A DNA stretch of 64,000 nt from Naegleria gruberi (Eukaryota): assembly GCA_000004985.1 (NCBI GenBank), contig GG738863.1, one strand, 5' to 3'. A program made the position numbers and the translations under genes. Positions 1 through 55,291 of the stretch are shown here, piece by piece; position 1 is the first letter of the stretch; each line of letters begins with the position of its first letter. The notes under the pieces are model-generated. The model ran no database searches. It had not been told where the DNA came from and saw only the letters and a program-made list of their open reading frames with translations.

Positions 1-360
1 CCAACCCAAACCCAAACCCAACCCAAACCCAAACCCAAACCCAAACCCAAACCCAAACCCAAACCCAAACCCAAACCCAAACCCAAACCCAAACCCAAAC
101 CCAAACCCAAACCCAAACCCAAACCCAAACCCAAACCCAAACCCAAACCCAAACCCAAACCCAAACCCAAACCCAAACCCAAACCCAAACCCAAACCCAA
201 ACCCAAACCCAAACCCAAACCCAAACCCAAACCCAAACCAAAACCAAACCCAAACCCAAACCCAAACCCAAACCCAAACCCAAACCCAAACCCAAACCCA
301 AACCCAAACCCAAACCCAAACCCAAACCCAAACCCAAACCCAAACCCAAACCCAAACCCA
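1..360 (+). repeat. Terminal telomere array, (CCCAAA)n on the + strand (G-strand unit TTTGGG), with rare variants (CCCAAC at positions 1-20, CCAAAA/CCAAA at ~236-250)
   Basis: Seen directly: about 60 perfect hexamer units starting at base 1. The C-rich strand runs 5'->3' on +, which fits a left chromosome end. The array stops abruptly at 360 into unique AT-rich sequence. Confidence 0.9.
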
Positions 361-399
361 GAACTAAAAATAGAATTCTTCTAAACCCAACGTTCAAAC

Positions 400-1128
400 C
401 CTAGCCCAAAATTATAAACTTATTCAAATATCATAAAATTTTATATCATTCGATTGTAAATGATGAGTAGAACAATGTGGCATATTTAGTTTTTCAATTT
501 GTAATATATTAACTTTGTAAATAATGTCAGATTAAAATTGTTAAAATGAAACCATAGGAAGAATGATATTTTCAAAATCCTTTAATGAGATTATATAGTT
601 TATATCATCATTAACAACATTTATAATTACTTTCATATCAAATTTCAAAAGTTCAGGTCTGTAGGTATAAAAGTATAGAGTGAAAAGGGAAGTTGTGAGG
701 TAAAAGAGGTTAACTATAACTTTTGAGTTTCTCATCAAAACATATTGAATCCTGACATGAAAATGTTCCATTTGGTGAGTATACATCGAATATCAAATTT
801 ATTTTAACTTTCATATTTAAAGATTTCTTCCCTCAATCACACATGGTCAACAGGAGGAAATCTTGAAAAAGGACCACCTATTGAAACTTTACCAAAATGA
901 TTTATATGATCTATAGTGATATAGAATTCAATTTCATATCATAAGAATTAGAAATGGTACCATGGGAATGTAAATGTTGATTTTCCAAAGTTGACTGANA
1001 GGAAAGACAAGTCAGACCAAGTCTATCAAATATATCACTTCAATCAACAAATTATACATGAAAATGCTCCATTCGATGTGTAGAGATAGAATATCAAGTT
1101 TATTTTCACTTTCATATTCATGATTTTC
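400..1128. repeat. Subtelomeric tandem repeat family, unit ~305 bp, degenerate; copies approx 755-1060 and 1060-1128 (truncated by the gap), with weaker similarity at 400-750
   Basis: The motif catgaaaatg[c/t]tccatt...atatcaagtttattttaactttcatatt recurs at ~755 and ~1060. The 820-1128 block is ~80% alignable by eye to 3010-3300. Confidence 0.75.
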
Positions 1129-2450
1129 NNNNNNNNNNNNNNNNNNNNNNNNNNNNNNNNNNNNNNNNNNNNNNNNNNNNNNNNNNNNNNNNNNNNNNNN
1201 NNNNNNNNNNNNNNNNNNNNNNNNNNNNNNNNNNNNNNNNNNNNNNNNNNNNNNNNNNNNNNNNNNNNNNNNNNNNNNNNNNNNNNNNNNNNNNNNNNNN
1301 NNNNNNNNNNNNNNNNNNNNNNNNNNNNNNNNNNNNNNNNNNNNNNNNNNNNNNNNNNNNNNNNNNNNNNNNNNNNNNNNNNNNNNNNNNNNNNNNNNNN
1401 NNNNNNNNNNNNNNNNNNNNNNNNNNNNNNNNNNNNNNNNNNNNNNNNNNNNNNNNNNNNNNNNNNNNNNNNNNNNNNNNNNNNNNNNNNNNNNNNNNNN
1501 NNNNNNNNNNNNNNNNNNNNNNNNNNNNNNNNNNNNNNNNNNNNNNNNNNNNNNNNNNNNNNNNNNNNNNNNNNNNNNNNNNNNNNNNNNNNNNNNNNNN
1601 NNNNNNNNNNNNNNNNNNNNNNNNNNNNNNNNNNNNNNNNNNNNNNNNNNNNNNNNNNNNNNNNNNNNNNNNNNNNNNNNNNNNNNNNNNNNNNNNNNNN
1701 NNNNNNNNNNNNNNNNNNNNNNNNNNNNNNNNNNNNNNNNNNNNNNNNNNNNNNNNNNNNNNNNNNNNNNNNNNNNNNNNNNNNNNNNNNNNNNNNNNNN
1801 NNNNNNNNNNNNNNNNNNNNNNNNNNNNNNNNNNNNNNNNNNNNNNNNNNNNNNNNNNNNNNNNNNNNNNNNNNNNNNNNNNNNNNNNNNNNNNNNNNNN
1901 NNNNNNNNNNNNNNNNNNNNNNNNNNNNNNNNNNNNNNNNNNNNNNNNNNNNNNNNNNNNNNNNNNNNNNNNNNNNNNNNNNNNNNNNNNNNNNNNNNNN
2001 NNNNNNNNNNNNNNNNNNNNNNNNNNNNNNNNNNNNNNNNNNNNNNNNNNNNNNNNNNNNNNNNNNNNNNNNNNNNNNNNNNNNNNNNNNNNNNNNNNNN
2101 NNNNNNNNNNNNNNNNNNNNNNNNNNNNNNNNNNNNNNNNNNNNNNNNNNNNNNNNNNNNNNNNNNNNNNNNNNNNNNNNNNNNNNNNNNNNNNNNNNNN
2201 NNNNNNNNNNNNNNNNNNNNNNNNNNNNNNNNNNNNNNNNNNNNNNNNNNNNNNNNNNNNNNNNNNNNNNNNNNNNNNNNNNNNNNNNNNNNNNNNNNNN
2301 NNNNNNNNNNNNNNNNNNNNNNNNNNNNNNNNNNNNNNNNNNNNNNNNNNNNNNNNNNNNNNNNNNNNNNNNNNNNNNNNNNNNNNNNNNNNNNNNNNNN
2401 NNNNNNNNNNNNNNNNNNNNNNNNNNNNNNNNNNNNNNNNNNNNNNNNNN
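1129..2450. other. Assembly gap (1322 N)
   Basis: Run of n. The ORFs the track reports across it (1012-2880) are artefacts of translating repeats and Ns. Confidence 0.99.
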
Positions 2451-2826
2451 ACCCAAACCCAAACCCAAACCCAAACCCAAACCCAAACCCAAACCCAAAG
2501 CCAAACCCAAACCCAAACCCAAACCCAAACCCAAACCCAAACCCAAACCCAAACCCAAACCCAAACCCAAACCCAAACCCAAACCCAAACCCAAACCCAA
2601 ACCCAAACCCAAACCCAAACCCAAACCCAAACCCAAACCCAACCAAAACCAAACCCAAACCCAAACCCAAACCCAAACCCAAACCCAAACCCAAACCCAA
2701 ACCCAAACCCAAACCCAAACCCAAACCCAAACCCAAACCCAAACCCAAACCCAAACCCAAACCCAAACCCAAACCCAAACCCAAACCCAAACCCAAACCC
2801 AAACCCAAACCCAAACCCAAACCCAA
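2451..2826 (+). repeat. Second, interstitial (CCCAAA)n telomere-like block in the same orientation as the terminal array
   Basis: About 62 hexamer units, with variants cccaaagcc at ~2489 and ccaaccaaaaccaaa at ~2640. It is bounded on the left by the N gap and on the right by subtelomeric repeat sequence. Confidence 0.9.
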
Positions 2827-3800
2827 GTCCATAATTCAAAAGTTAGTACTGACCTGACCTTTAAATATCTATCAATATAAGAAATGAAACCATCAAATTT
2901 ACATCATTAATAGATGATAAGAAATATAATCAATGATATGAATCTTCACTAAGTAATCTCTTAAATAACCCAAATAAATCAACTCTGAATCCTAACCAAA
3001 CCCACAAGTATGAAAAGGATAAAATCTTGAAAAAGAACCACTATTGAAACTTTACCAACATGATGTAGATGATCTATAATGATGTAGAATTCAATTTCAT
3101 ATCATAAGAATCAGAAATGGTACCGTAGGAAGATAATGGTTGACTTTATAAGGATGACATTAAGGAAAGACAAGTCAGACCAACTCTATCAAATACATCA
3201 CTTCAATCAGCAAAATATATATGAAAATGCTCCATTCGATGTGTAGAGATAGAATATCAAGTTTATTTTAACTTTCATATTCAAGATTTCATCCCTTTCA
3301 TACCAACTAGTCAACTGAGTAAAACGAATGAAAATCTGGAAAATGACCACTCTATGAAACATTACCATCATGTTCAACATCTCAAATAATGTATATAATT
3401 CAGTTTTAAGACGTTTTGGTGAACATTCCATCTTTCAGTAAGGTACAGAGTGATTTATCAAGGTTGACTTGGGAAGATCAGGAGGAAATCTTGAATATAG
3501 AAAACCACATCCTCAATCTACAAAATACATATCAATCGATTGGAAATCATTAGTACATCTCGAAAATATAATTTATTTTATGTGTTGAAATCTCTCCTTG
3601 ACCTCTTTTAGTCAATTAAGACAATTAAGGATGATACTATAGGAAAAGTTACCAATCTCATAATAAATGATAATATCGTGTTCTACATCTCAAATAAAGT
3701 GGACTTTCTTCAAATTATATGTTTTCATTTCAAGAAATGCATCCAGTAGATAGTACATGCTGATTTGTCAGGAGAATGGAAATCTGAAGGGTCCAGAAAC
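2827..3800. repeat. Subtelomeric tandem repeat family (same ~300-bp unit as 400-1128); at least three progressively degenerate copies (~2830-3219, 3219-3520, 3520-3800)
   Basis: 3010-3300 aligns to 820-1128. The motifs ggaggaaatcttgaa and catctcaaataa recur at the expected ~300-bp spacing. Confidence 0.7.
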
Positions 3801-5025
3801 AACTCCAATTTCACTGAAATTGATATCATGGTATGTAGACACTCTAATTAGTATGTGGTATCAATTTCATGAATATTGGTTCAGTAGATGTCGAGATGTC
3901 AACACTATCAATTTACTATAGACATTTGACATAATATCATAGATTATACTCCAACTCACTCATTTTACATATAATAAGTCTAGAATTGATACCACATAGT
4001 CTATATATCAATTAATATACATCTACAATAGTTAAGAAACATTTCAAACTATTTTCATAAAATTAATCAGTAAATGTTCAATATCAACATTATATATATC
4101 CTAGTGAACACTCCATCTCAGTGAAAGTTATTCCAATCATTCTGTAACTTTACCCAATACGTCTAATCACATTATTATACATCTGGTATCAATTGCATAC
4201 TGTTAGAATTGAATTCAATATGATAATAATAACAATCTTTCAAAATGTCACATTTCAAAAAAAAGATTACACTCCATCTCAGTCAGTTTACAAAATATCA
4301 TACTAGAATCAAATATGAATACACTCCTCTTGATGAGGAGTACAATCTGAGAAAGTTTCAAATTGATGGCTCAGTATCTTCAAGTCAACTAAGTAACCTA
4401 AGAATAGACAAGTCAATTAAGTACATCAAGTCAACAATTGAAAATTGAAATATAGTATATTTATTACAAATTAATAGGACTATTCTAAATAACCATATTG
4501 TTTAAATCAATGTTTGTAAAGTTGTCAATACATCATGTCACAGATCATACTCTTTCTCAATGAATACTTGACTAAATCAATTGAAATTGACATCTAGTTG
4601 TTTATATGTAGTATTGTATATGTGGTATCAATATCTTTTAAAATTGTCAAGTATTAAGGAAGATCTAAAAAAATAAGGTGGTAATAATGAATAAGTTAGT
4701 AAAATCACCTTGAATCGATCACTCGTCACTTAATTGACACTCCAACATACAACCACTGAACCAACAGTGCTAACGCTTTAATTTCTAGAAATGATTCGTA
4801 TGAATAACCAAGGGGTTGTATGACTATTAAGGGAAAATTGTCGGTTTCTATTAAGAACAACAATTAACAACAAATAACAACAAGAATTGTATCATTATAT
4901 GATAATAACAATAATTTATTAAACGATATGGAAGGGAGAAGTTGCTCCCTCACCAAATGATGAGGGGAAGATTCAACTTGATGATCAAGAGATGGTACCT
5001 CCACCAATCTACTTAAATTATAGTA

Positions 5026-5259
5026 TCATTGAAGATTATCCTGATGATCTTGTTGATAAATAGATTCATACATCGGAATAGTTTTGGAAGCAGAGTTATT
5101 TAGCGTTGTATTTTGATAATCGTAATATTGTAAAGGGTTAAAAATGGAGTTGATTAATGCGATTATCAAAATAATGGCTTCAAATCCATGGCTATTAGCA
5201 TTGCCAACAAGCAAATAACTTGTGGAGTGAGAAACATTACCACTTCCACCTTCTAAATA
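5026..5259 (-). CDS. Possible terminal exon of an unidentified gene encoding a hydrophobic segment (…LLVGNANSHGFEAIILIIALINSIF…)
   Basis: Open frame on - with a TM-like stretch. There is no in-frame ATG nearby (the track's M is a TTG), so this is probably an internal or 3' exon. No homology recognised. Confidence 0.2.
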   Translation of the reverse strand, partial: YLEGGSGNVSHSTSYLLVGNANSHGFEAIILIIALINSIFNPLQYYDYQNTTLNNSASKTIPMYESIYQQDHQDNLQ

Positions 5260-6440
5260 ATATTAATAAATATTATTTACTTGTTCCTTAATGATCTTAA
5301 TGATATCGGAATAAGTGCGCACCGCAATTAAAGGTAGTTTCACACTTGTTCAACACAGCTATTAAGCAATAGAAAATTAACAAGTTTAACACCAATTCAA
5401 ATACAAAATGCTCAACAATTACTGAATTAAATGCAAATATCCCAAAGTCATTTTGTAGAGAATTAAGTTGAACCTATGCGATTTTTCACCATTTGCCAAA
5501 TGGTTGCGTATCTAGCAAGCCCCCCCAAGAGAACAAAAAACACAGAAATATCGAGGTAAAACGAGTTGATTATCTCCATTATTTGATAGCAACCAATATT
5601 AAAATTATATATCAGCATGTAGCTGTGAACATTTCCTATCTAATGATATATATCGATGTATATGAAGTCTTATAAATAATGATGTTTTAAGAGCGCAGAT
5701 TAATATCTTTTGATAGAAACTTTAGAGTTTTGTGAATATGATCCATTTTGAATGAGCAACCTGCACAATGACATCAAATTGTGACAGAAATGGAAACTCC
5801 ACACTCTGATCTTCCTGAATCATCAATCCTGACTCATCACTCTGTTTAATCAAATCGAATAGATACGAATTACATGTTGTGAATAATTCCATTTGATTTT
5901 TCACAGTTATTGATCTTTTCCTTTTTGGATCATAACGGCTGTTGGGCTGGAGCGGTGATTGGGCTAACAGTTCCTAATACCTTCATTGTAATGGATTATA
6001 ACCTTAATCTCCCAGATCTTCCAAAGCTTCAAATCATCTAGAACATATGAATCCAAACAGTGAACATTGTATCAAATAAAAACATCATTATGATTTTGTG
6101 GTGGTGCATTGTCTACAGATATTAAGAAAAATGGATTTTCCATCTGAAAGTACATATCCCCGACATTTCGATTTGTGTTTCAAATCTTCAATATTCATTG
6201 CTATTGGTTTATCTTTTAACCTCAATCTTGATTGCACTCTACCAGAAGCATACAAAAGCAAGACTGCTTTAACAGCAATATCCAAACTGAAAAACCCTTG
6301 TTTACAAAATGAGTCAACAAGTCACTTGACTTCAAAAACCTTTATTGAGATTTAGTAACTTCAATTGAAATGAATCGTAAAAGCCTATCAACACCTTAAA
6401 AGGTTTCAACTGTTAACAGTTGTTTTTATCTTCCTTGTTA

Positions 6441-7736
6441 TTAGGCAAGACTAGCAGCCTCCATGATAACTTGATTATTTGTGAAAGAGAATGCATAAAC
6501 CATTTGATTTCCAGCAGACACAACAAACCTCGATCCATCTCCTGTGATTTTGGATGAGGCAGTTTTGAGAACCTTTCCATTCTGATCATTAGAAATAACT
6601 AAATATTTAGTTGCATCCATCAAAATAACAGATTGCCTATTGGGCTGTGCACTTGCAACAGTGAAGCCAGACAACTTGTTGTTTTGCCATGTTCCATCAA
6701 TTTCAAGACGCGCAATACTATTGTCTTTTTGAATGTCAAAACTTGTGTGTGTACCAAAGTATCCTCCAGAAAAACCAGTGTAAGCACTCAATGCACTGAA
6801 AATATGGACACTTGTTCCATTCTGAATTACAGAGCTAACGATGTTTGATGTCTCAGCCACTAATTTCTTGGCATCACCATAAAGAACTGTGACCATATCC
6901 GCCTTTTGAGCGTCAACATTAACTACACCCACAACTGAACTATCTTTTAAATTCATTCCCAAAATTAACCAACCTGGTAGTCCACTAAAACTCATACTAT
7001 CTACACCAGCACCAGAAAGGTAATCTGGAATTGTGAATCTGGAAATTAATTTCCCTGTTTGAATGTCCAATTTGTGAATGGTTTGATCACCTGTGGCCAC
7101 ATACAAATCTCTAGAGACAAGAAGAATATCAATTGGCTCATTATCACATTCGAAAGACCATAATTGCTTGAAATTTTTGGTTTCATACGCAATAACATGG
7201 CTATAAGTATACGTAATGAGAATAGTGCTGTCTTCTGAGAGGAGAATTACCATACCTGCTTGTTCCACTATCTTATAGAGAATATTCTTGGTATTTGTCA
7301 AATCTGCCTTAATCAATATTTTAGTACCATCACTTCCAATAAGAGTGAGATATGCATTACTATTTGAATCAATTACCAAGTTGGATTGTACTGGAGACAT
7401 GGTTGAGGGTGGTGCAGCATATTGTAAAATACTTTGATTTCCATTCAAAAGATCAACTTCAATAAATGTAAGATTGTATCTGTACAAATCAAAAATCAAT
7501 GCCTTTCCTCTATTGACATCAAATGCAACAGAACCAGAACTGGCAAAAGTGTCTTGAAACTTGGTAATCCATTCCTTGTGTGGTTTATAGAATTGAATAC
7601 TGTTACTACGATACTTGTCGGAATTTACATGTCCCCACGAAGGCAACAATTGACCATTCGCAACCTCTTCATACATGAATAAAATTGCCAATAATAATGC
7701 CAATAACCAAGTGGCTAATGTAACAATTTTGAACAT
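6441..7736 (-). CDS. Hypothetical secreted/membrane-anchored protein (431 aa) with an N-terminal signal/anchor and a beta-rich body
   Basis: ATG at 7736. N-terminal MFKIVTLATWLLALLLAILF. Long uninterrupted ORF. No domain recognised. Confidence 0.55.
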   Translation of the reverse strand: MFKIVTLATWLLALLLAILFMYEEVANGQLLPSWGHVNSDKYRSNSIQFYKPHKEWITKFQDTFASSGSVAFDVNRGKALIFDLYRYNLTFIEVDLLNGNQSILQYAAPPSTMSPVQSNLVIDSNSNAYLTLIGSDGTKILIKADLTNTKNILYKIVEQAGMVILLSEDSTILITYTYSHVIAYETKNFKQLWSFECDNEPIDILLVSRDLYVATGDQTIHKLDIQTGKLISRFTIPDYLSGAGVDSMSFSGLPGWLILGMNLKDSSVVGVVNVDAQKADMVTVLYGDAKKLVAETSNIVSSVIQNGTSVHIFSALSAYTGFSGGYFGTHTSFDIQKDNSIARLEIDGTWQNNKLSGFTVASAQPNRQSVILMDATKYLVISNDQNGKVLKTASSKITGDGSRFVVSAGNQMVYAFSFTNNQVIMEAASLA

Positions 7737-9383: not shown

Positions 9384-11002
9384 TTAATTTCTGAGAGAAA
9401 TCTGAATCTTCATGTTTGAAGAAGGTTGATTCATAGGAAGAGCCTCGTTTACAATAGGGTCAACACTTTCATCATTCAATAATTTAAATCTATACTTGGT
9501 TGCCATACAGCTCAATATCATACAAGATTCCAAAAGGGAAAATTTCTTTCCGATACATTGACGATTACCCATAGAGAAAGGAACCCAAATGAGGTTTTGA
9601 ATAGAATCATCCTTGGTGGTTGGATTGACGAAACGATCTGGAATGAATTCGTTTGGTTTCTCCCAAATGTCTTCTCTCTTGTGAAGAGAATTAAAGAGTG
9701 TATACACTATAGTTCCTTTTGGAATTGTATGATTACCTAAAGTGGTGTCCTTAGAAGCTACTCTACCATTAACAAGAACAGGAGAATCTTTTCTCAGAGT
9801 TTCCATCAGTACACTATTGACATAGCTCAATTGTTCATAATCATCCATGGTAGGATCTCTTCCATTTAACACCTTATTGACTTCTGTACATAGGGTATCT
9901 TGAATATCAGGACGTTTGGAAAGTTCATATAAAACCCATTGTAATAATGTTGATGTTGTCTAAAAAATATTAGATGAATATTATAAAAACCTTGAAAACC
10001 TACGTCATGACCAGCAAAAGCCATTGCCACACTGTTTGATTTTAATTCAGAATCAGAAATGAGCTTTTCAGACATGTTTGCTTCAACCAAACGAGTCAAA
10101 ATGTCACTTGTTTCATCGAGTGTCATTTCTCCAGTCTTTAACTTTTCCCTTCTTTCTCCAATAATTTTATCTAAATGATCACTACAGTGATTGATAGCAT
10201 CAGTAATACCAACAGCCTTTTCAATCATTCTTCCAATAAATCCTGACTTGAAAATTCCCTTAATAATCATCGTTTTCATTGTAAAGGTAGCATGAAGTGC
10301 ATTCTTGAACTTTTTACCTTCATCATTGCCTGAAAAGACACCAAAATCAAGATTAAAACCAGCCTTTCCCAATACTTGGAATGTAATATCGGATAAATCT
10401 TGTTTAGTTAGCAAGCAAGTTCCATTTCCTCCCTCTTGAATCTTGGTATTCCATCTTTCGAATAATTGCTCTACAGATTCAACTGTAACCTTACACATGT
10501 ATCTGAGATTAGTTGGAGAAAATGCAGGACTACACACTTTAAAGTGTTTCTTCCACTCTTCTGTGTGAAGAACAGTCACAATATTCTCACCAAAAACCTT
10601 GGCTATGGTCAAATCAGTCTTATCAAACGAACTAGCCTTGGTAATGAAAATCTCTTTCAATAATTTAGGATCATTGGTGCAGATAACTGAATTGTTAGCA
10701 GTTACAATTCTCATCAGATTACAATTATTCTCCTTGAAAAACTTGACAGCATGTTTCTCAGTCTCAAAGAAGGAAGCAATATAAAAGTATGGAGCCAATA
10801 TTGGAATCTTGAAAGGAGCCTTCTCAAAGAATTGAATCACACCTGGAATGTCCTTCATCTTTGCATAGTTGGAATATAATTTGAACAAACTCTTGAGAAG
10901 ATAGGTAAGGAACATGACCAAAAATGTTGTACCAACGATCATAGTCAGTGAAATTTCATAAGAAAACTTGTCATTGTGTGGATCAACAACACCTTTGTCC
11001 AT
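9384..11002 (-). CDS. Cytochrome P450 monooxygenase, two exons (11002-10004 and 9959-9384; intron 9960-10003, 44 nt, GTAGGT…TTTAG), ~524 aa
   Basis: Heme-binding loop PFSMGNRQCIGKKF (FxxGxRxCxG) and ETLR are present. The I-helix AGHD|TTS is split by the intron. There is an N-terminal membrane anchor. Both exon lengths keep the reading frame. Confidence 0.85.
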
Positions 11003-11223: not shown

Positions 11224-12053
11224 ATGCCCAGTATTGATGGTTATGCATCGATGAGTAGTAATAGTGGACAACAATCCAATTGTTCTTCCTCCGTTGGATC
11301 TTCTCCATCATCGGGTGTGCCACAACAACAACAACAATATCATCATCAGCAACAACAACCACCATTAATGTGGTCACAACAACCCAATAACAATATCAAC
11401 AATAATCATCATTTAAATTATAATATAATCCCTAATAATAATAATATTCCTAATATAAATACAATTCCTAATATAATTCCTAACAATAATAATATGTTCT
11501 CTAATAATAATAATAATATCCAAACACCCATCATATTACCTCCAATATCTTTGTGTACACCAACAAAAACAACAACACCATCATCATCTGGTGTCACTGC
11601 TCAATTCCATCCCATAGCCTGTTCATCCTGTCGAAAGAACCATAAGCAGTGCGGTAAATATCATTTCAACATATATTTAAATTTTAAAATTCAATAATAT
11701 AATAATTTCAAATAATCAGATAGAACATTACCTAGTTGTGGTCGATGTATAGAAAAAAATCAAGCTTGTGAATATAAAACTCCCCTAAGAAAACGAAATC
11801 CTTTAGGAAATAATATTTCAAAAAAGAAGAAATCATCAGCCATTCCGAAGAATGTAGTATCTTACAAGGATTGGATTATTTTTCTGCAGAATTCTGATAA
11901 TTTAACGAGAGAGAATGTTGTCAAATTCCACAAAGTTTATCATATTATTGAATTTATTGATCCTATAGAGTTTGAGAAATATATTTACATTATGATGATG
12001 ATTCGACGAATGATAGTAATAATAGTGTGGATGAAGAGTCAAAAATGATGAGG
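11224..12053 (+). CDS. Zn2Cys6 (binuclear cluster) transcription factor, 5' part. Exon 1 is ~11224-11654, the intron (~66 nt) ~11655-11720, and exon 2 runs from ~11721 into the 50-N gap
   Basis: Exon 1 ends with CSSCRKNHKQC (C-x2-C-x6-C). Exon 2 begins …PSCGRCIEKNQAC (C-x2-C-x6-C), which completes the six-Cys motif. The N-terminus is Q/N-rich. A frame ambiguity near 11990-12050 (…EFEKY vs …HYDDDSTNDS…) and the gap prevent a complete model. Confidence 0.65.
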
Positions 12054-12103
12054 NNNNNNNNNNNNNNNNNNNNNNNNNNNNNNNNNNNNNNNNNNNNNNN
12101 NNN
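12054..12103. other. Assembly gap (50 N) inside or next to the Zn2Cys6 gene
   Basis: Run of n. Confidence 0.99.
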
Positions 12104-14246: not shown

Positions 14247-17200
14247 TTATGGCTTTATTTGATCCTTTGTAGCTTTCCTTGGTTCATTTCTTAATGCCAA
14301 ATCATAAAGTGGTTTGTCTTCCATTTGCTTCCAATCAAAGAGTAAATAGGCGAGAAATTCCAATAATTGTACATTGATTCTAATCATGGCAGATTCATCT
14401 TGTGGTGAAGGATTTTGTTGTTGGGGAATTAATTTCAATTTGGCAAGAATCTTATCTCCTAACTTTCTTTTAAGAATGAGTTTTCTTGTTTTCTCAGGTA
14501 CTTGAGCGATGAGTGGTGTGCAGATTGATGGTTTTTTCAATCTTCTTGAATGGAGACGTTTCATGGTTTGAGTCATGAGTTGATACTTGTGACAATTAAA
14601 AATAACACCATACTTGCTAGAAACAAAGTCATTATGACTCTCACTGATAAATGAAATATCTGTCAATAGGGCACCAAGGAATGGAACGAGCAATTCTGAT
14701 TCTTTTGCTATTGCTTCCTGTCTTAGGCCTTTCACTGTACATTTTTCTGATATGGTTGTTACCATTGAATGTAATTCTTTTCCTAAAAGTTCTTGACATC
14801 TGGCAAGAGTAAATTTGTTACTTCCAAGAGCTGAAGAATTTATGGTACTCGTACAAATCATGGTAGTACTAAAATCATTGACACTAAAACTCAATGCCTT
14901 AATTTGTTCAATCTTTTCCAATATCTGTGAACGCTTTTCTAGAGATGGCTCAGAAAGGCAGGAAACTAGGAGGTAATTACTCAAATTATTGAAAATATTG
15001 CAGAGCTTTTTAAGAACCATGAATCTAGTCTGTGAAGGGTCGTAGTTTTGTGGAGAGCTAGACTTGTATACAAGTGTTCTACTTTCAAATAAGCTGACAT
15101 GTCTGAACAAGTAGTCCATCAGTATAAATTGATGAAAGACAAAATCTTCTACTGTACATAAAGGAGGTGAATTTTCACTTTGAGAAATGAAAATACTTTT
15201 TGATTCCAATGTTGCTGAAACGAATGGGTTATTCTCTGGTGTTGGTAGTTGAGATGAGGTAGTATTACTTGGTTGAATGGAGCGAGAGAGAATTAGATCA
15301 TTCATCATGGAAGAGCACTCAAAATCCAATGAATCTTTGGTCATATCAATAAGCTTGAAGAGTTTGATACATTTTTTGTGAATGACATTATCACCATTTG
15401 AAAAACTACAATGACAAAGAGCATAGGAGGCAAAAGCTTCGACCAATTCAATCATATGGACCTCGCACAACGCACCATTGGTTCTATAAAAATCAAGAGT
15501 GGAATATCTTTTGAATCCAAAATCCTTAATCCAAATAAATAGCACATCCAATAAAACCTCAACTTCAAATAGGTATTGCTTGAAAAAATCATGCCTCACC
15601 TCTGGATTATTTTGAACTTGAGCACGAATGAATGACTTTTCAATATTTGGGAAGCATCTCATCCATAACTTTTCATGATTTTCAGTATCTAATGTAAAGA
15701 CTCTCTCAAATAATTTGTACAAGAGCATTTCTGGAGTGATTTTTGATGCTGCAATATTGGAAATCATTGATTCATAAACACCTTCTGGTGTGTTGATATC
15801 ATTGTAATTCTTTTGCTTGTTATCCTTTTGAAGATTCAGTGAAGCGTTGCACAATTTGCACAACTCATTATATACGAGTGGTTGCTGTGAGACCATGTAG
15901 AAGAATTGAAGATAGAGATTGCAATAAGTGTCGTGTCTTTCCTGAAGTGTACGCTTAAAAATCTCAGAAGGACTTTCAGTGATGGCAATGGCTGAGAAGA
16001 ATAGAGGCGACTCTGACAATATGTCATCAGCATTAGGGGAAGTTATCGATGAGGTATCTGGACTTGCATTTGGAGTCTTGGTGTTAAAGAGAGCCCCTAA
16101 CTTTTTCTTGGTCGAATTGGCCTTCTCTGATGAAGCCACACTACCACGAGGTGTCAGAGAATTGGATCGTTTCTTTCTCAAATCATTCATAATCTTCCAA
16201 TGATCTTGTGCCCAAATATTAATCTTGATTTGTGATTCCCATTCTTGTTTTTCTCTTTCATTCAATGCAAATAATTTTTCATCTTCAGAACTGTTGGCCA
16301 ATTGATTCATTAAATCCTGTCTTACAATTCTCGAATGCATAAGTGAACAAAATTTGTACAAAATTCCACTTGATGCCTCCTCACCTGAAAAATCTCTAGC
16401 AACAAAGTGATGAATGAGTGCTACCTGAGAGAGTGTATTATTAACTTGTAGAGAAGATGCCTTTTTCTGAGAGTTTGGTAAATTTACCATTATGGTTGAC
16501 CTTCTCTCCCTCGATGTCACATGAGCATTCACTTCATCACCTTCCACACCTATTATACAAGTATCATAATCTGCATCAATGAGAATGGTTGCCCATCTTT
16601 TACAGACCCATCTCAAACTACATCGTTGTTCACTTCTCGAAATGAAACTAAATATGAAAGGCATTAAATCGAATTTCTCCCACCATCCAATTGAGGAATG
16701 TTGATTAATGGCTGTCATCTTTTTAGCCTTTCCATTTGATGAACCATGTCCAATATTCGTAATTTGAAATGATTTCTCCCTGAAAAAGTTAATTACATTA
16801 TTCTTGGTTTGAGGAAGACCTTCAGAGAAGGAATTTGAAGAATTGGAATGATCGGAAGTGGTCGATCTTCCAGAGAAGGTTCTTGGAGTTTTAGAATCAG
16901 CACTGGTAGGTGTTGGTGTTGAGTAGCAAGCGTCCATTGTTGTTGTTGATGTTATTGAATTTGGTGAGAGTGCTCTATTTAAATTGGTTGAATTATTTGA
17001 AACTGTTGGTAGAAAAGTTGGAAGTGAGAGTGATGGTAAATCGTCTTCTGAAATTCTAAATTGTTCGGGAAGAGGTTGCAAGTAGTGTAATGATGTCGAG
17101 GTGGAGGACTGTTTAGCAGTGCTGGATGCCTTACCAACTTGAAGTAAATTCATAGAGGCTGCTTCTCTATACAATTGTTTTCCTTCTGTTGTCGTTGCTG

Positions 17201-17876
17201 TTTGATTGTTATTATTACTATTATTGCTATTGTTATTACTACCATTAGTATTATTAGATGGTGTGGGCTGATTATCCACAATGATATTTGGATTATTTAC
17301 TTGGTGATGATGATTGGATTCTTCTCCACTCGATAAAGAATGATGATGAGTGAATCGAGAGGGTGAATTTGCTTCATTATTATTAGTACTATTTGTTGTA
17401 CTCTTGGAACGTATTCGGGGAGAGGAAGCAGCTGAAGATGATGCTCTTCTTCTTCCATTTCCAGTGTTAGGTGATGAAGATGATGAATTTTCATGATAAC
17501 AAGTAGTACCATTAGTAGTATTAGTATTGTTATTATTCATATTAGATTGAAAAGCATGAACATCTCCAACATAGAATGTCGAATTAATCAATTCATCCGG
17601 ATTATTAGAACCACTCGATTCCAAATACGAAGAGGGTGAAGAATTCAATAGGAATTGAATCAGAGTTTGTGGTATCGATCCAACCCTTCTCAACTCTCCA
17701 TCATTATCATTGGATGCAACAACATTACCCGATGTTAGTGGTGATAGAGGTGAAGAGGGCAAAACAGGTGAGCCGACTGAAGAAGCATTTTCTCGTAAGT
17801 TTGTTGGCGGGAGGAATGTAGTGTTGCTTTGTGGACTGTTTGCTAGAGAATTCGTTCTTCTCTTGCTGGTAGACAT
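14247..17876 (-). CDS. Ras guanine-nucleotide exchange factor (CDC25-homology RasGEF domain) with an internal F-box-like motif and a long S/N-rich N-terminal region (~1209 aa), single exon
   Basis: C-terminal …LEKIEQIKALSFSVNDFSTTMICTSTINSSALG… and VPFLGALLTDISFISESH match RasGEF catalytic-domain motifs (NFNSLMAI…ALNSS; IPFLGxYLTDLxFI). F-box-like LMPFIFSFIS…CSLRWVCKRWATIL. The likely ATG is at 17876; the track start at 17915 is a TTG. Confidence 0.75.
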   Translation of the reverse strand: MSTSKRRTNSLANSPQSNTTFLPPTNLRENASSVGSPVLPSSPLSPLTSGNVVASNDNDGELRRVGSIPQTLIQFLLNSSPSSYLESSGSNNPDELINSTFYVGDVHAFQSNMNNNNTNTTNGTTCYHENSSSSSPNTGNGRRRASSSAASSPRIRSKSTTNSTNNNEANSPSRFTHHHSLSSGEESNHHHQVNNPNIIVDNQPTPSNNTNGSNNNSNNSNNNNQTATTTEGKQLYREAASMNLLQVGKASSTAKQSSTSTSLHYLQPLPEQFRISEDDLPSLSLPTFLPTVSNNSTNLNRALSPNSITSTTTMDACYSTPTPTSADSKTPRTFSGRSTTSDHSNSSNSFSEGLPQTKNNVINFFREKSFQITNIGHGSSNGKAKKMTAINQHSSIGWWEKFDLMPFIFSFISRSEQRCSLRWVCKRWATILIDADYDTCIIGVEGDEVNAHVTSRERRSTIMVNLPNSQKKASSLQVNNTLSQVALIHHFVARDFSGEEASSGILYKFCSLMHSRIVRQDLMNQLANSSEDEKLFALNEREKQEWESQIKINIWAQDHWKIMNDLRKKRSNSLTPRGSVASSEKANSTKKKLGALFNTKTPNASPDTSSITSPNADDILSESPLFFSAIAITESPSEIFKRTLQERHDTYCNLYLQFFYMVSQQPLVYNELCKLCNASLNLQKDNKQKNYNDINTPEGVYESMISNIAASKITPEMLLYKLFERVFTLDTENHEKLWMRCFPNIEKSFIRAQVQNNPEVRHDFFKQYLFEVEVLLDVLFIWIKDFGFKRYSTLDFYRTNGALCEVHMIELVEAFASYALCHCSFSNGDNVIHKKCIKLFKLIDMTKDSLDFECSSMMNDLILSRSIQPSNTTSSQLPTPENNPFVSATLESKSIFISQSENSPPLCTVEDFVFHQFILMDYLFRHVSLFESRTLVYKSSSPQNYDPSQTRFMVLKKLCNIFNNLSNYLLVSCLSEPSLEKRSQILEKIEQIKALSFSVNDFSTTMICTSTINSSALGSNKFTLARCQELLGKELHSMVTTISEKCTVKGLRQEAIAKESELLVPFLGALLTDISFISESHNDFVSSKYGVIFNCHKYQLMTQTMKRLHSRRLKKPSICTPLIAQVPEKTRKLILKRKLGDKILAKLKLIPQQQNPSPQDESAMIRINVQLLEFLAYLLFDWKQMEDKPLYDLALRNEPRKATKDQIKP

Positions 17877-18231
17877 TCTTCTAGTTGATATAATAAACGT
17901 GTGTTGGAGAAGCAACCAAACAGACTGAAAGAGATCTGGAGTTGATGATGTTTTTTTGGTGAATGTTGACAGAATTTAAAACTAGACAGGAGGGAACTGC
18001 CCACATCACACCTCTCTTTCCAACAGTTGCTAATGTCTCATCTTTCGTGGGGCGTGTGGCAATAAAAGGATTGCACTTGTGTCAATAACTCTCAGCTTTC
18101 TCTGTTTGGTCAGTAAATGGTATTGATAATGACATTGCTCTGGCAATCTAGATGGAAAGAAGAGCTCTGTTGAGAAATGATAATAAATTAAAATTGTTTA
18201 TGATGAAAGGTTTAAATTAATTGCAAACCAT

Positions 18232-51261: not shown

Positions 51262-52783
51262 ATGGCATTCGGATCGTGCGNNNNNNNNNNNNNNNNNNNN
51301 NNNNNNNNNNNNNNNNNNNNNNNNNNNNNNNNNNNNNNNNNNNNNNNNNNNNNNNNNNNNNNNNNNNNNNNNNNNNNNNNNNNNNNNNNNNNNNNNNNNN
51401 NNNNNNNNNNNNNNNNNNNNNNNNNNNNNNNNNNNNNNNNNNNNNNNNNNNNNNNNNNNNNNNNNNNNNNNNNNNNNNNNNNNNNNNNNNNNNNNNNNNN
51501 NNNNNNNNNNNNNNNNNNNNNNNNNNNNNNNNNNNNNNNNNNNNNNNNNNNNNNNNNNNNNNNNNNNNNNNNNNNNNNNNNNNNNNNNNNNNNNNNNNNN
51601 NNNNNNNNNNNNNNNNNNNNNNNNNNNNNNNNNNNNNNNNNNNNNNNNNNNNNNNNNNNNNNNNNNNNNNNNNNNNNNNNNNNNNNNNNNNNNNNNNNNN
51701 NNNNNNNNNNNNNNNNNNNNNNNNNNNNNNNNNNNNNNNNNNNNNNNNNNNNNNNNNNNNNNNNNNNNNNNNNNNNNNNNNNNNNNNNNNNNNNNNNNNN
51801 NNNNNNNNNNNNNNNNNNNNNNNNNNNNNNNNNNNNNNNNNNNNNNNNNNNNNNNNNNNNNNNNNNNNNNNNNNNNNNNNNNNNNNNNNNNNNNNNNNNN
51901 NNNNNNNNNNNNNNNNNNNNNNNNNNNNNNNNNNNNNNNNNNNNNNNNNNNNNNNNNNNNNNNNNNNNNNNNNNNNNNNNNNNNNNNNNNNNNNNNNNNN
52001 NNNNNNNNNNNNNNNNNNNNNNNNNNNNNNNNNNNNNNNNNNNNNNNNNNNNNNNNNNNNNNNNNNNNNNNNNNNNNNNNNNNNNNNNNNNNNNNNNATT
52101 TATTGTGGAATGATTATTTGAATTCTGTTCAACAATTTCAATTGGAACCCAATAATACTCATCATTATCATCCATTGAAAACATTCAAGGCGAGAGTGAA
52201 GAATTTCTCTGGAGTTTTACTTTCCTCTCCAACAATTTCAATGAGTTTCATATATAATCAGGTATTTTGGATTACACCTTATGGAAAGGGTGATTCGTCC
52301 AATAATTTTGAATATTATAGGGAGAGAATTGAGAGAGCTATTTCAAATTTCAATTTGCATGTGTTAAAGTTTTTGGTTGTGCCTGTTTTACGGATATTCC
52401 CTTCACTTCCATTGTATCCACCATTTGGAATACCGTGTGCTCAACCAAAATGCAGAGAACGTTTCCAAAATGATGCTCTACTTTACAAGGGCTACTGGAA
52501 GAGTTCAACATCTATTTCCATTTTGGAAGAGATGAGGAGTGTGAAAATTTTACTGGCCTCCTTTAATCCTGACCAATCTCAATCCACACAGAACGTACCC
52601 ACACTCATTGTATACGGAGAATCTGATAATTTCTTCTCGTGGGACGAAACTAAACATCTCTTCTCCAAACATTTTCAAAATATAACATGGAAATCATATC
52701 CCAATCTTAAACACGACGTTTTCCATGAGGATGTTAAAGAACCAGTGTGCAGAGATTTATACAACCTTGTTGTAAGAAACTGA
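51262..52783 (+). CDS. Alpha/beta-hydrolase (MGLL/lysophospholipase-like) gene interrupted by an 817-N gap; only the C-terminal ~225 aa (52098-52783) and a possible start (51262 MAFGSC) are visible
   Basis: C-terminal PTLIVYGESDNFFSWDETKHLF…NLKHDVFHE (Asp/His region of hydrolase_4). The frame across the gap is unknown. Confidence 0.45.
51281..52097. other. Assembly gap (817 N)
   Basis: Run of n. Confidence 0.99.
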
Positions 52784-53132
52784 AACTCATTATAATCCTC
52801 AGTAATGATAATGACTGACGACTGATTGGTTTTTATCACACAATTGAATATTAAACCTATTCAATATATTTATACTGTCCTCACTACAGCCACACCTCAA
52901 AATCTGCTTAATTGTTCTTATTTGTGACTCGAATCCACATTTTGAAACTGCAAACTTTGAAACATTTTTTAGATCTACTAGAATCTTTCAACGAACTCTT
53001 TCTGAACATTTAAATGTAACAAAACAGGAAGCTGATCATAATGTAACTTTCCAGTAGTAACGAAAATAATCTTTTTGTTCTTCTCTTCTAGTATAAAAAA
53101 CGCGGTCGGTTCCATTGTGTGAAAAAACTTGT

Positions 53133-55046
53133 ATGCCATCAATTGTTAATCTCCAAAAGAAAATGAGAACTACACATTTCAAACATACCAGAAGAGTTGT
53201 TCAGTTATCGATGGTGATGAACAACAAGGAGAGTACAGTAGCTGCTTTGTTGAAGAGCAAGCATACGGGTTCATTGGTTTCGAATAGTGTGAGAAACAAG
53301 ATGGAAATCAGTCATGCCAATCTATCACCAATTAAACCATACATGCAAGAGGAAGATGTTGAATACCAACAACACGAACAACATCAAGTAGCAGTGTTAC
53401 ACGAAAATATGTACTTACATTTAGGTAACTTTCGAATGGAAAGAGCTTTAGAAGAATGGTCAAACATCTTTTCTCCAGATCAAATCTGTACTGATCCAAA
53501 CATGCTAAAGACATTACTACAAGATTGCTCTGCCATGGAACAAGTCAACCAAGTAAGAGCTGTCATTTATCCAACTGATAAAGAACAAATTGTGAAACTT
53601 GTCAAGATTTCCAACAAATTCAAAATTCCAATCTATCCAGTGAGTACAGGTAATAACTGGGGATATGGCAGTATGAATCCACCTCCTCAACATGACGTGT
53701 CAACCAACTCTGTTCGAGAAGGAATCATCTTGAACATGTCAAGAATGACAGAAATCAAATTTGACATCAAAAGTGGTGTAGTAACAGTTCAACCAGGAGT
53801 AACCCAACGTTTACTCAATCAATATCTTAAAGACAATAACCTCTCCTATCTCATACCTGTCACTGGTGGTGGACCTGACACAAGTCTACTGGGAAATGCC
53901 CTAGAGAGAGGTTATGGAATTACTCCACATGCTGATCACTTTTCTGCTTGTATGTCTCTAGAGGCAATTCTACCAAATGGAGAAGTTTACAATTCAATGC
54001 TTCATCAAATGGGAGCTCCACAAATAGATAAACTCTATAAATGGGGAACAGGTCCGTATGTTTGTGGAATTTTCACTCAGGGTAATTTTGGTATTGTAAC
54101 AGAGATGAGTATTGCGTTGGCTACTAGACCTGAAAGGGTGGAGGCATTCTTTTTTGCAGTGGATGAGTTGGATGTTGGAGTTCAGAAAGTTAAGGAGATT
54201 TTAACCAAAATTGGAAATGTTACTGGTTCCATTAATTTGATGAATAATAGAAGGATGATTTCAATGACACTTCCTTATCCGAAAGAAAAGATTGGGAAGG
54301 ATCAGGTAATTCCTGACGAAATGCTTTCGAATATGCAAAAAAGTATTGGAGTTTCGAACTGGAATGGTGCGGGAACCATTTATGGAAGTGAACAAGTTGT
54401 GAAAGCTGCCAAGAAGGAAATCAAAAAGATTTTGAAACAATCCACTAGAAAAATTATCTTTCTCAATCCAAAAGAAACCTCAACTTACTGTTCCATTCTA
54501 GATAAGGTTAGTTTCGTCCAGAATATTCCAATTGTCAAAGCTCTGTACGCTGTCAATGAAAGCTTAAAATTAATGAATGGAGAACCAAGTCAAGTTGCTC
54601 TTCCATTGGCTTATTGGAAAGCTGGGAAGAAACCAACAGAGAAACCAATGAATCCATCACAGGATGGTTGCGGACTTTTATGGTTTGCTCCATTGGTTCC
54701 ACTTCATCCAGAAAATGTTCAGGAATTTGTAGAGTTGGCTCAACGTGTCTGTATTAAGCATGGTATTGAACCACTCATCACTTTGACAAGTATGAACGAC
54801 AGGGCATGTGACAGCACTATTCCAATATTATTTGACAGGTCAGATCCAGAACAAGTCAAAAAAGCTCATCAATGTTTTGATGAATTATTTGAAGAAGGAT
54901 CCAAGTTGGGTTATGTACCTTATAGATTAAATGTAAATGCTATGCGAAAGGTTTCAGATAGAAAGGCAGTTCCATCCATTTTGAAATCTTTAAAAACTGC
55001 AATCGATCCAAATAATATCATTGCTCCAGGAAGATATGGTTTGTAA
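53133..55046 (+). CDS. FAD-linked oxidase (PCMH-type FAD-binding domain; vanillyl-alcohol-oxidase / D-lactate-dehydrogenase superfamily), ~637 aa
   Basis: RAVIYPTDKEQIVKLVKISNKFKIPIYPVSTGNNWGYGS…VTVQPGVTQRLLNQYLKD…IPVTGGGPDTSLLGNALERGYG. Start uncertain: ATGs at 53133 or 53163, and the track start at 53115 is a TTG. Confidence 0.7.
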   Translation: MPSIVNLQKKMRTTHFKHTRRVVQLSMVMNNKESTVAALLKSKHTGSLVSNSVRNKMEISHANLSPIKPYMQEEDVEYQQHEQHQVAVLHENMYLHLGNFRMERALEEWSNIFSPDQICTDPNMLKTLLQDCSAMEQVNQVRAVIYPTDKEQIVKLVKISNKFKIPIYPVSTGNNWGYGSMNPPPQHDVSTNSVREGIILNMSRMTEIKFDIKSGVVTVQPGVTQRLLNQYLKDNNLSYLIPVTGGGPDTSLLGNALERGYGITPHADHFSACMSLEAILPNGEVYNSMLHQMGAPQIDKLYKWGTGPYVCGIFTQGNFGIVTEMSIALATRPERVEAFFFAVDELDVGVQKVKEILTKIGNVTGSINLMNNRRMISMTLPYPKEKIGKDQVIPDEMLSNMQKSIGVSNWNGAGTIYGSEQVVKAAKKEIKKILKQSTRKIIFLNPKETSTYCSILDKVSFVQNIPIVKALYAVNESLKLMNGEPSQVALPLAYWKAGKKPTEKPMNPSQDGCGLLWFAPLVPLHPENVQEFVELAQRVCIKHGIEPLITLTSMNDRACDSTIPILFDRSDPEQVKKAHQCFDELFEEGSKLGYVPYRLNVNAMRKVSDRKAVPSILKSLKTAIDPNNIIAPGRYGL

Positions 55047-55140
55047 ATAGATTTAAATCTCATAAAACCAAAAAACTAATGGTTAACAAACCGTTCACTT
55101 GTATTCGAAAGTTGAAATAATATGAAATTATCATAAAAAG

Positions 55141-55212
55141 AGAGGTATCGGCGATTCGAACCCCGGACCTGAAGATGTGCTGTCTACCGCTCTCCCACTG
55201 AGCTAATACCCC
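55141..55212 (-). tRNA. tRNA-like gene, closest to tRNA-Cys(GCA), with non-canonical features; possibly a pseudogene
   Basis: Minus strand GGGGTATTAGCTCAGTGGGAGAGCG…GGTTCGAATC…ATACCTCT. Acceptor stem 7 bp with one G-U. A-box and B-box are present, and a T5 run follows immediately after the 3' end. BUT the anticodon loop reads CAGCACA (A at 33, C at 37), and there are a T·T mismatch in the anticodon stem and a G·G mismatch in the T stem. Confidence 0.55.
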
Positions 55213-55291
55213 CTTGGTTGACTTTATTAAATATCCATATTAACATTTTACAAAATATTATTATTTTACAATTTAAAACAATACAAAAAAA

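What the first reader, a model, noticed from the sequence alone, without database searches (positions are those of the whole stretch)
1..3800. Duplicated telomere + subtelomere module: a second (CCCAAA)n block 2.4 kb inside the chromosome end
The structure is telomere (1-360), ~300-bp subtelomeric repeats, an N gap, then a second same-orientation (CCCAAA)n block (2451-2826) followed by homologous subtelomeric repeats. This is either a real interstitial telomeric sequence, formed by tandem duplication or telomere healing and capture, or a scaffolding join of two different chromosome-end contigs. The gap lies exactly at the junction. The two possibilities have very different biological meaning (end instability versus artefact).
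Basis: partly seen in the sequence, partly recalled or inferred. Interest (0 to 1): 0.65.

Follow-up and report, generated by a model that had tools for sequence, protein, structure and literature searches.

The report
Two telomere-ended contigs joined by scaffolding
The "second telomere 2.4 kb inside the chromosome end" is real sequence, but it sits at the edge of a contig next to an assembly gap in the old Sanger draft of the amoeba Naegleria gruberi. It is most likely a second true chromosome terminus that the scaffolder placed in series with the first, not an internal telomere.

Summary
(CCCAAA)n runs occupy 1-360 and 2451-2826 in the same orientation. A run of 1322 N (1129-2450) abuts the second block. 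Diverged ~300-bp repeats follow both blocks.

The window is the start of a 467,654-bp scaffold of Naegleria gruberi, whose assembly is the Sanger draft GCA_000004985. TTTGGG is this organism's candidate telomere repeat.

No base of non-telomeric sequence is joined to the left of block 2, so only a scaffolding link makes it "internal". Block 2 is as clean as the terminal block: each is 4 edits from a perfect repeat. The flanking subtelomeres share only one 294-bp unit, at 86.7% identity. A single duplication of telomere plus subtelomere is therefore rejected (P about 3e-7 for such purity at that age).

The outer contig is 1.1 kb, ends in a low-quality tail and was never extended.

Best reading (about 0.6): two independently capped termini placed in series. 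They are probably the two homologues' versions of this end in a heterozygous diploid, or otherwise a paralogous end. That makes it a false tandem duplication with an associated gap.

A real, recent, yeast-Y'-like interstitial telomere tract is not excluded (about 0.2).

The existing nanopore data or the archived Sanger mate pairs would settle it. Interest is low.

The parts
1..360 (+). Telomere tract 1, (CCCAAA)n, at the start of the scaffold. The C-rich strand reads inward, as expected for a left chromosome end.
   Evidence: TRF gives 60 copies at 98% matches. 56 units are perfect and the tract is 4 edits from a perfect repeat. TTTGGG is the candidate N. gruberi telomere (PMC3622300).
361..532 (+). 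Distal cap of contig 1: 172 bp that do not resemble the repeat unit. It holds degenerate telomere-like motifs at 383-414 (AAACCCAA, CAAACCCTA, GCCCAAAA).
   Evidence: It is not similar to 2827-2996 or to the units.
533..1128 (+). Subtelomeric units A (533-833) and B (834-1128) of contig 1, with a period of 301 bp. There is a single N at 999, and the contig stops at 1128.
   Evidence: A against B gives z 14.7. B against 2997-3289 is 86.7% identical.
1129..2450 (.). Sized scaffold gap of 1322 N. It is the only thing that connects contig 1 to contig 2.
   Evidence: The other gaps in the window are 50, 817 and 595 N, so gap sizes were estimated rather than fixed.
2451..2826 (+). Telomere tract 2, (CCCAAA)n. 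It forms the extreme left end of contig 2 and has the same orientation and purity as tract 1.
   Evidence: TRF gives 63 copies at 98% matches. 58 units are perfect and the tract is 4 edits from a perfect repeat.
2827..2996 (+). Distal cap of contig 2: 170 bp that do not resemble the repeat unit. The junction with the telomere is abrupt (CCCAA|GTCCATAATTC). Telomere-like motifs appear only at 2967-3006.
2997..4560 (+). Degenerate tandem array of ~309-bp units (U2 2997-3289, U3, U4, and weaker U5 and U6). U2 is the specific counterpart of unit B in contig 1.
4561..6440 (.). Remaining gene-free subtelomeric DNA before the first gene.
   Evidence: No ORF that looks convincingly coding, and no Rfam or tRNA hit.
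6441..7736 (-). First gene, NAEGRDRAFT_79425 (431 aa, weak PQQ-like beta-propeller match). It identifies the organism and was the only sequence recovered from the protein database.
   Evidence: 100% identity to the N. gruberi protein, which lies on a 467,654-bp contig. It was the only hit with E<=0.001. Pfam PF13360 match at 26.1 bits, below the 27.6 cut-off.

Best explanation
Contig 1 (1-1128) and contig 2 (2451 onward) are two separately assembled chromosome termini, each carrying its own telomerase-maintained (TTTGGG)n tract. No single DNA molecule carries both tracts. The mate-pair scaffolder of the Sanger draft placed the 1.1-kb contig outside contig 2 and wrote a sized gap, which created a false tandem duplication. 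The favoured sub-variant is that the two contigs are the two homologues' versions of this same chromosome end in the heterozygous diploid strain NEG-M. Under that reading the homologues are collapsed into one consensus further in and differ in their last ~0.5-1 kb. In homology register, contig 1 overlays contig 2 with an offset of 2163 bp, so the gap would be fictitious. The second sub-variant is that contig 1 comes from a paralogous chromosome end with a related subtelomere and was linked through ambiguous telomeric or subtelomeric reads. What is shown: the anatomy, the species, the purity of both tracts, the limited homology, and the absence of any assembled left flank for tract 2. What is inferred: how the scaffolder behaved, and that the two contigs are allelic.
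For: (1) Tract 2 starts at the first base of contig 2 and everything to its left is N. A 376-bp array is shorter than a Sanger read (read length from my own knowledge), so a true internal tract should have been read through and given a left flank. (2) The two tracts have near-equal length (360 and 376 bp) and equal purity (4 edits each), as expected for two maintained termini. (3) The flanking subtelomeres are 13.3% diverged in the one unit they share and unrelated in the ~170 bp next to the telomeres. A tract as old as that divergence should carry about 25 changes, and P(<=4) is 3e-7. (4) Each contig has the same complete layout of telomere, ~170-bp non-unit cap and unit array, so 2827 does not look like a random break inside a continuing array. 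(5) Contig 1 is only 1128 bp, has an N at 999 and a ragged end, and was never extended. Assuming about 8x coverage with 700-nt reads, a real 1.3-kb stretch with no assembled read has P about 1e-5 to 3e-3. The overlay model only needs no read to start in about 500 bp of one homologue, which has P about 0.06-0.24. (6) The assembly is a Sanger draft (GCA_000004985, PMC8040595), and Naegleria is described as a mainly heterozygous diploid (PMC9928731). False duplications with associated gaps, where divergent homologues are assembled as false paralogues, are a recognised error class (PMC9668749). (7) The first gene inward gave only itself in the 5.8-billion-protein database. Mate links into that region would therefore tie contig 1 to this chromosome end rather than to a duplicated one.
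Against: The scaffolder had some linking evidence and wrote a positive, sized gap of 1322 N. A simple overlay predicts an overlap of about -841 bp, so the overlay model needs an error of about 2.2 kb in the gap estimate. That is plausible for a few large-insert clones but is unverified. An identity of 86.7% is far below ordinary allelic divergence, so the 'alleles' would have to be structurally heteromorphic subtelomeres. The other three gaps in the window show no flanking duplication, so the assembler does not produce this pattern routinely. Both tracts carry the same rare compound variant CCAAAACCAAA, which hints at a shared history between the two tracts. No reads, depth or mate-pair data could be examined.
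Confidence: 0.6

Rival explanations
1. A real interstitial telomere tract. One molecule carries telomere 1, about 2.1 kb of subtelomere, an internal tract of at least 376 bp of (CCCAAA)n, and then the second subtelomere. It would have formed recently, when a paralogous chromosome-end module was added onto an existing telomere by telomere capture or break-induced replication. This is the arrangement of tandem yeast Y' elements separated by telomeric repeats.
For: The two tracts have the same orientation, and the scaffolder placed contig 1 outside contig 2 with a positive sized gap. Both tracts share the compound variant CCAAAACCAAA, which copying of one tract from another could explain. A long internal array would itself explain why the gap could not be assembled. 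Interstitial telomeric repeats at the boundaries of subtelomeric elements are common in yeast (PMC5145143). Many genomes show large internal telomere blocks (PMC3622300).
Against: No left flank of tract 2 is assembled. Contig 1 ends in non-telomeric sequence and was not extended toward any internal array. Tract 2 is full length and undecayed while the modules are 13% diverged, so the join would have to be very recent. The modules share only 294 bp, unlike the much more homogeneous yeast Y' elements (PMC5145143).
Confidence: 0.2
2. Long and short forms of one chromosome end. The real end extends about 2.4 kb beyond 2827 to telomere 1. A fraction of the molecules, either one homologue or a subclone of the culture, were broken at 2827 and healed by new telomere addition. 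The assembler took the telomere path for contig 2 and left the conflicting read-through sequence in the gap.
For: The junction at 2826/2827 is abrupt and has no degenerate telomere-like sequence next to it. The junction of tract 1 is followed by degenerate telomere motifs at 383-414. This reading explains both a positive sized gap and a mate-pair link. It also explains why the gap abuts the tract, because the reads conflict there.
Against: It requires about 1.7 kb of real sequence with no assembled read (P about 1e-5 to 3e-3 under the assumed coverage). The 170 bp inside 2827 do not resemble the repeat unit, whereas a break inside a continuing array should leave unit sequence there. It does not explain the shared tract variant.
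Confidence: 0.12

Closest known systems
False (haplotypic) duplication with an associated gap in a collapsed diploid assembly
   Same: Two related but diverged copies flank a scaffold gap. One copy is a very short contig. The organism is reported to be a heterozygous diploid. The error class is documented (PMC9668749; PMC9928731).
   Different: The duplicated object here is a whole chromosome terminus including its telomere. The copies are only 86.7% identical over 294 bp, which is much more diverged than typical alleles. Depth and k-mer evidence could not be examined.
Yeast subtelomeres: tandem Y' elements and X-Y' junctions separated by interstitial telomeric repeats
   Same: The layout on paper is the same: terminal tract, subtelomeric element, internal telomeric tract in the same orientation, next subtelomeric element (PMC5145143).
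   Different: Yeast Y' elements are described as much more homogeneous (PMC5145143). From my own knowledge, their internal tracts are shorter than the terminal one. Here the 'elements' share one diverged 294-bp unit, the internal tract would be full length, and contiguity is not shown.
Terminal deletion with new telomere addition (chromosome healing), giving long and short forms of an end
   Same: The transition from unique sequence to perfect repeats at 2826/2827 is abrupt, and a more distal telomere-capped sequence is linked to the same scaffold.
   Different: No read-through form is assembled, and the sequence inside the junction does not look like an interrupted array.
Candidate N. gruberi telomere repeat TTTGGG (Fulneckova et al. 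2013)
   Same: Same repeat unit, same species, at a scaffold terminus with the C-rich strand reading inward (PMC3622300).
   Different: That survey gives the repeat type only. It does not describe subtelomeres or this locus, and its authors state that terminal position needs experimental confirmation.

Membership tests
Terminal telomere tract of N. gruberi | Tandem array of the species' telomere unit (TTTGGG/CCCAAA) | tested here: met
   Both blocks have 56-58 perfect units and are 4 edits each from a perfect repeat. The unit matches the published candidate.
Terminal telomere tract of N. gruberi | Orientation: the G-rich strand runs 3' toward the end, so the C-rich strand reads inward at a left end | tested here: met
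   Both blocks read CCCAAA on the + strand, with unique DNA to their right.
Terminal telomere tract of N. gruberi | Lies at the physical end of the molecule | tested here: inconclusive
   Block 1 is at the scaffold start. Block 2 is at a contig start, and only N lies to its left. Physical termini need Bal31 digestion or long-read evidence.
Interstitial telomeric sequence (ITS) | Telomeric repeats flanked on both sides by non-telomeric sequence on one contiguous molecule | tested here: not met
   The left flank of block 2 is a run of 1322 N. No contiguous sequence crosses it. The feature is absent from the data, but it is not disproved for the genome.
Interstitial telomeric sequence (ITS) | Old ITSs show decay relative to the maintained terminal tract | tested here: not met
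   Block 2 is as pure as block 1 (4 edits each). About 25 changes would be expected if it were as old as the B/U2 divergence.
Y'-like tandem subtelomeric modules | Adjacent modules are long and highly similar copies of one element | tested here: not met
   Only 294 bp are shared, at 86.7% identity. The ~170 bp next to each telomere are unrelated. Most of module 1 lies in the gap and cannot be seen.
False haplotypic duplication at a scaffold gap | Two homologous copies flank a gap, and one of them is a short contig | tested here: met
   834-1126 and 2997-3289 flank the gap, and contig 1 is 1128 bp.
False haplotypic duplication at a scaffold gap | Each copy has about half the normal read depth, and reads or mates place the short copy in overlay register | not testable with these tools
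   No reads or depth are available. N. gruberi contigs could not be reached through the look-up of encoding contigs.
False haplotypic duplication at a scaffold gap | Divergence between the copies is compatible with alleles | tested here: inconclusive
   Overall identity is 86.7%. In 30-column windows it ranges from 70% to 100%. This is higher divergence than ordinary alleles, but subtelomeric alleles can be heteromorphic.

The most novel reading that the evidence does not exclude
The scaffold is correct. N. gruberi would then carry a full-length, undecayed (TTTGGG)n tract about 2.1 kb inside a chromosome end, between two paralogous subtelomere modules. That would be a recent capture of another end onto an existing telomere, and a Y'-like modular subtelomere in a heterolobosean. 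The shared CCAAAACCAAA variant would record the copying of one telomere tract from another.
Probability: 0.2. Interest if true: 0.45.

Novelty: not a real feature. Interest (0 to 1): 0.18.

Why it matters
If it is an artefact, the practical message is narrow. The first 2450 positions of this N. gruberi scaffold should not be read as evidence of an internal telomere or of end instability, and contig 1 should be treated as an alternative or unplaced terminus. The sequence still gives two clean examples of N. gruberi telomere-subtelomere junctions: about 360-376 bp of TTTGGG repeats, a ~170-bp cap, and an old ~300-bp unit array. No paper I found describes this anatomy, but it is an ordinary kind of structure. 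If the join were real, it would document telomere capture and modular subtelomere growth in a deep-branching eukaryote. That would be of moderate interest, but the mechanism is known from yeast and humans.

Tried and rejected
(1) Ciliate macronuclear chromosome with alternative telomere-addition sites. This was my first guess, from memory that Paramecium telomeres include G3T3 repeats. I rejected it because the standard genetic code gives ORFs of up to 1242 aa with dense genes, and the first gene is 100% identical to a N. gruberi protein.

(2) Dictyostelid origin, suggested by Asn- and Ser-rich proteins. One search rejected this too.

(3) Finding the same locus in other assemblies through the look-up of encoding contigs. 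Three look-ups found nothing on record.

(4) Scanning JGI metagenome contigs for the 2827 junction and for the conserved repeat core. Both scans gave 0 hits.

(5) An RNA gene or tRNA-derived origin for the ~300-bp unit. There was no Rfam hit at E<=1 in 1-7000 and no tRNA there.

(6) Hairpins at unit boundaries. The folds are not better than shuffles, with z of -1.5 and 0.05.

(7) A smooth rise in identity toward the inner end of contig 1, which would have supported allelic convergence. The identity is patchy instead (0.70, 0.93, 0.83, 0.97, 0.77, 0.77, 0.93, 0.90, 1.00, 0.86). The near-identical stretch is also the conserved core of the unit family, so it is not diagnostic.

(8) Homology between the two ~170-bp caps, which would have indicated a one-unit copy-number polymorphism. 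It is not significant (z 1.5).

(9) Strand-composition bias in the subtelomere. It is weak once the telomere tracts are excluded.

(10) The Fritz-Laylin 2010 genome paper and the supplement of Fulneckova 2013 are not held. The assumed sequencing coverage and my account of how the assembler sized gaps therefore rest on my own recollection.
Full report
**What is in the sequence**

The window opens with (CCCAAA)n from 1 to 360. Tandem Repeats Finder reports 60 copies at 98% matches, and 56 units are perfect. A second tract in the same orientation runs from 2451 to 2826, with 63 copies at 98% matches and 58 perfect units. An 18-mer of the repeat matched 115 times, against none in 100 shuffles, and every match lies inside these two tracts. 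There is no other telomere-like block in the 64 kb.

Positions 1129-2450 are 1322 N. The first base after the N run is already telomere repeat. The window has other N runs of 1, 50, 817 and 595 bases. Gap sizes were therefore estimated, as in a mate-pair-scaffolded draft.

**Whose genome it is**

My first guess was a ciliate macronuclear chromosome. That fails, because the standard genetic code gives ORFs of up to 1242 aa and a dense gene map.

The first ORF inward (6441-7736, minus strand) is 100% identical over 431 aa to NAEGRDRAFT_79425 of Naegleria gruberi, which lies on a contig of 467,654 bp. The window is therefore the start of a scaffold from this species. Its published assembly is the Sanger draft of strain NEG-M (GCA_000004985, 40.9 Mb, 33% GC; PMC8040595). 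The window's GC content agrees with that figure.

Fulneckova et al. (2013) proposed TTTGGG as the candidate telomere of N. gruberi, based on its terminal position on scaffolds (PMC3622300).

Genes from 6.4 kb inward are ordinary: SCAMP, a split cytochrome P450, RasGEF, NHL-repeat and RGS.

**Anatomy of the two ends**

- **Contig 1:** telomere (1-360), then a 172-bp segment that does not resemble the repeat unit (361-532), then unit A (533-833), then unit B (834-1128), where the contig stops.
- **Contig 2:** telomere (2451-2826), then a 170-bp non-unit segment (2827-2996), then units U2 (2997-3289), U3 and U4, then weaker U5 and U6 to about 4560. Gene-free DNA follows up to 6440.

Neighbouring units are only 59-65% identical, so this is an old, unhomogenised array:
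- 599-826 against 901-1126: 64.7%, E 2e-16.
- 3013-3986 against 3322-4309: 58.6%, offset 309, E 1e-19.

The one specific cross-match is B against U2, at 86.7% over 294 columns (E 5e-85). The two ~170-bp caps are not significantly similar to each other or to any unit. Nothing else in the window is repeated, and the other three gaps have no flanking duplication.

**Why a single duplication of the whole module is rejected**

Each tract is 4 edits from a perfect repeat. If tract 2 had been internal since the time B and U2 diverged (13.3%), about 25 changes would be expected in its 376 bp. The probability of 4 or fewer is 3e-7.

Tract 2 is therefore either still maintained by telomerase, which makes it a terminus, or it became internal very recently through an event unrelated to the old paralogy of the subtelomeres.

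**Why I think it is a terminus and the join is an artefact**

1. Nothing is assembled to the left of tract 2. Its 'internal' status rests entirely on the scaffolder. From my own knowledge, a 376-bp array is shorter than a Sanger read, so a true internal tract should have acquired a left flank.
2. The two tracts have nearly the same length and purity.
3. Both contigs show the same complete end layout of tract, ~170-bp cap and array. Position 2827 therefore does not look like a random break inside a continuing array.
4. Contig 1 is 1128 bp, has an N at 999 and a ragged end. It looks as if it was built from reads that start in the telomere, and it was never extended.
5. A rough coverage calculation supports this. 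It assumes about 8x coverage, 700-nt reads and only inward-pointing reads near an end; these figures come from my memory of the project, not from a held paper. A real 1.3-kb stretch with no assembled read then has a probability of about 1e-5 to 3e-3. A fictitious gap only requires that no read started in about 500 bp of one homologue, which has a probability of 0.06-0.24.
6. Naegleria is described as a mainly heterozygous diploid (PMC9928731). [quoted passage not shown]
7. The first gene inward returned only itself from the 5.8-billion-protein database. Mate links into that region would tie contig 1 to this chromosome end.

In homology register, contig 1 overlays contig 2 at an offset of 2163 bp. 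The two telomere junctions would then lie about one unit (303 bp) apart.

**What argues the other way**

- The scaffolder wrote a positive gap of 1322 N. Overlay predicts about -841 bp, so that model needs a 2.2-kb error in the gap estimate. This is plausible for a few large-insert clones but is unverified.
- An identity of 86.7% is far from ordinary allelic divergence.
- Both tracts contain the same compound variant, CCAAAACCAAA (238-248 and 2642-2652). It lies 18 units from the inner junction in tract 1 and 28 units in tract 2. Independent sequencing errors are an unlikely cause. It could be a characteristic telomerase slip, or it could be a trace of one tract having been copied from the other. 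I could not test this because no other N. gruberi telomere was reachable.
- A real internal tract between subtelomeric elements would have a good precedent in yeast, at X-Y' and Y'-Y' boundaries (PMC5145143).
- A third possibility is long and short forms of one end, with healing at 2827. The abrupt junction at 2826/2827 fits this, in contrast with the degenerate telomere-like motifs just inside tract 1 (383-414). It needs about 1.7 kb of real but unassembled sequence.

**What could not be done**

- Two metagenome scans, for the junction and for the repeat core, found nothing.
- Rfam and tRNA scans of the subtelomere were empty.
- The palindromic motif at unit boundaries does not fold better than shuffles.
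- A nanopore assembly of N. gruberi exists (PMC12695648), and it or its reads would decide the matter.

**Verdict**

The interpretation as a duplicated module or an interstitial telomere is most likely wrong for any single molecule.

| Reading | Confidence |
|---|---|
| Two independently capped termini placed in series by scaffolding (two homologues favoured, paralogous end possible) | about 0.6 |
| Real, recent interstitial tract | about 0.2 |
| Long and short forms of one end | about 0.12 |

This is an ordinary draft-assembly problem at a chromosome end. Interest is low.

Noticed in passing
window 238-248 and 2642-2652: Both telomere tracts contain the same rare compound variant, CCAAAACCAAA (TTTGG-TTTTGG on the G-rich strand). 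It lies 18 perfect units from the inner junction in tract 1 and 28 in tract 2. Tract 2 has one further deleted A just before it. The cause could be a characteristic telomerase slip, tract-to-tract copying, or a consensus glitch.
   Followed up: partly
window 383-414, compared with 2827-2966: The junction of tract 1 is followed by degenerate telomere-like motifs (AAACCCAA, CAAACCCTA, GCCCAAAA). The junction of tract 2 is abrupt, and telomere-like motifs appear only at 2967-3006, just where the homology with contig 1 begins.
   Followed up: partly
window 818-870; 3008-3037 with 3274-3303; 3469-3498: Unit boundaries carry an inverted motif pair, TTCAAGATTTC(A/T)TCCC and GGAGGAAATCTTGAA. One pair of 30-nt arms is 87% complementary across a whole unit. 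The predicted DNA hairpins are not better than shuffles.
   Followed up: yes
window 2827-6440: About 3.6 kb next to the telomere has no ORF that looks convincingly coding and no Rfam or tRNA hit. The first gene (6441-7736) gave only itself among database hits.
   Followed up: partly
window 9384-11002 (- strand): A cytochrome P450 is split over two adjacent ORFs. The 9866-11002 ORF matches Pfam profile positions 7-276 and the 9384-9872 ORF matches 310-455. This suggests a short intron or a frameshift in the draft.
   Followed up: no
window 999; 12054-12103; 51281-52097; 57770-58364: There is a single ambiguous base inside contig 1 and three further gaps of 50, 817 and 595 N. None of these gaps has duplicated flanks, unlike the gap at 1129-2450.
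   Followed up: yes
window 55140-55212 (- strand): The only tRNA gene in the window is tRNA-Cys (GCA). It lies between the ORFs at 53097-55043 and 55277-57112.
   Followed up: no
window 11224-11697 and 14247-17915: The proteins here have long Asn-, Gln- and Ser-rich low-complexity runs (for example NNNINNNHH and SNNNSNNSNNNN). These at first suggested a dictyostelid. The 18-bp-period tandem repeat at 11416-11517 lies inside one of them.
   Followed up: no
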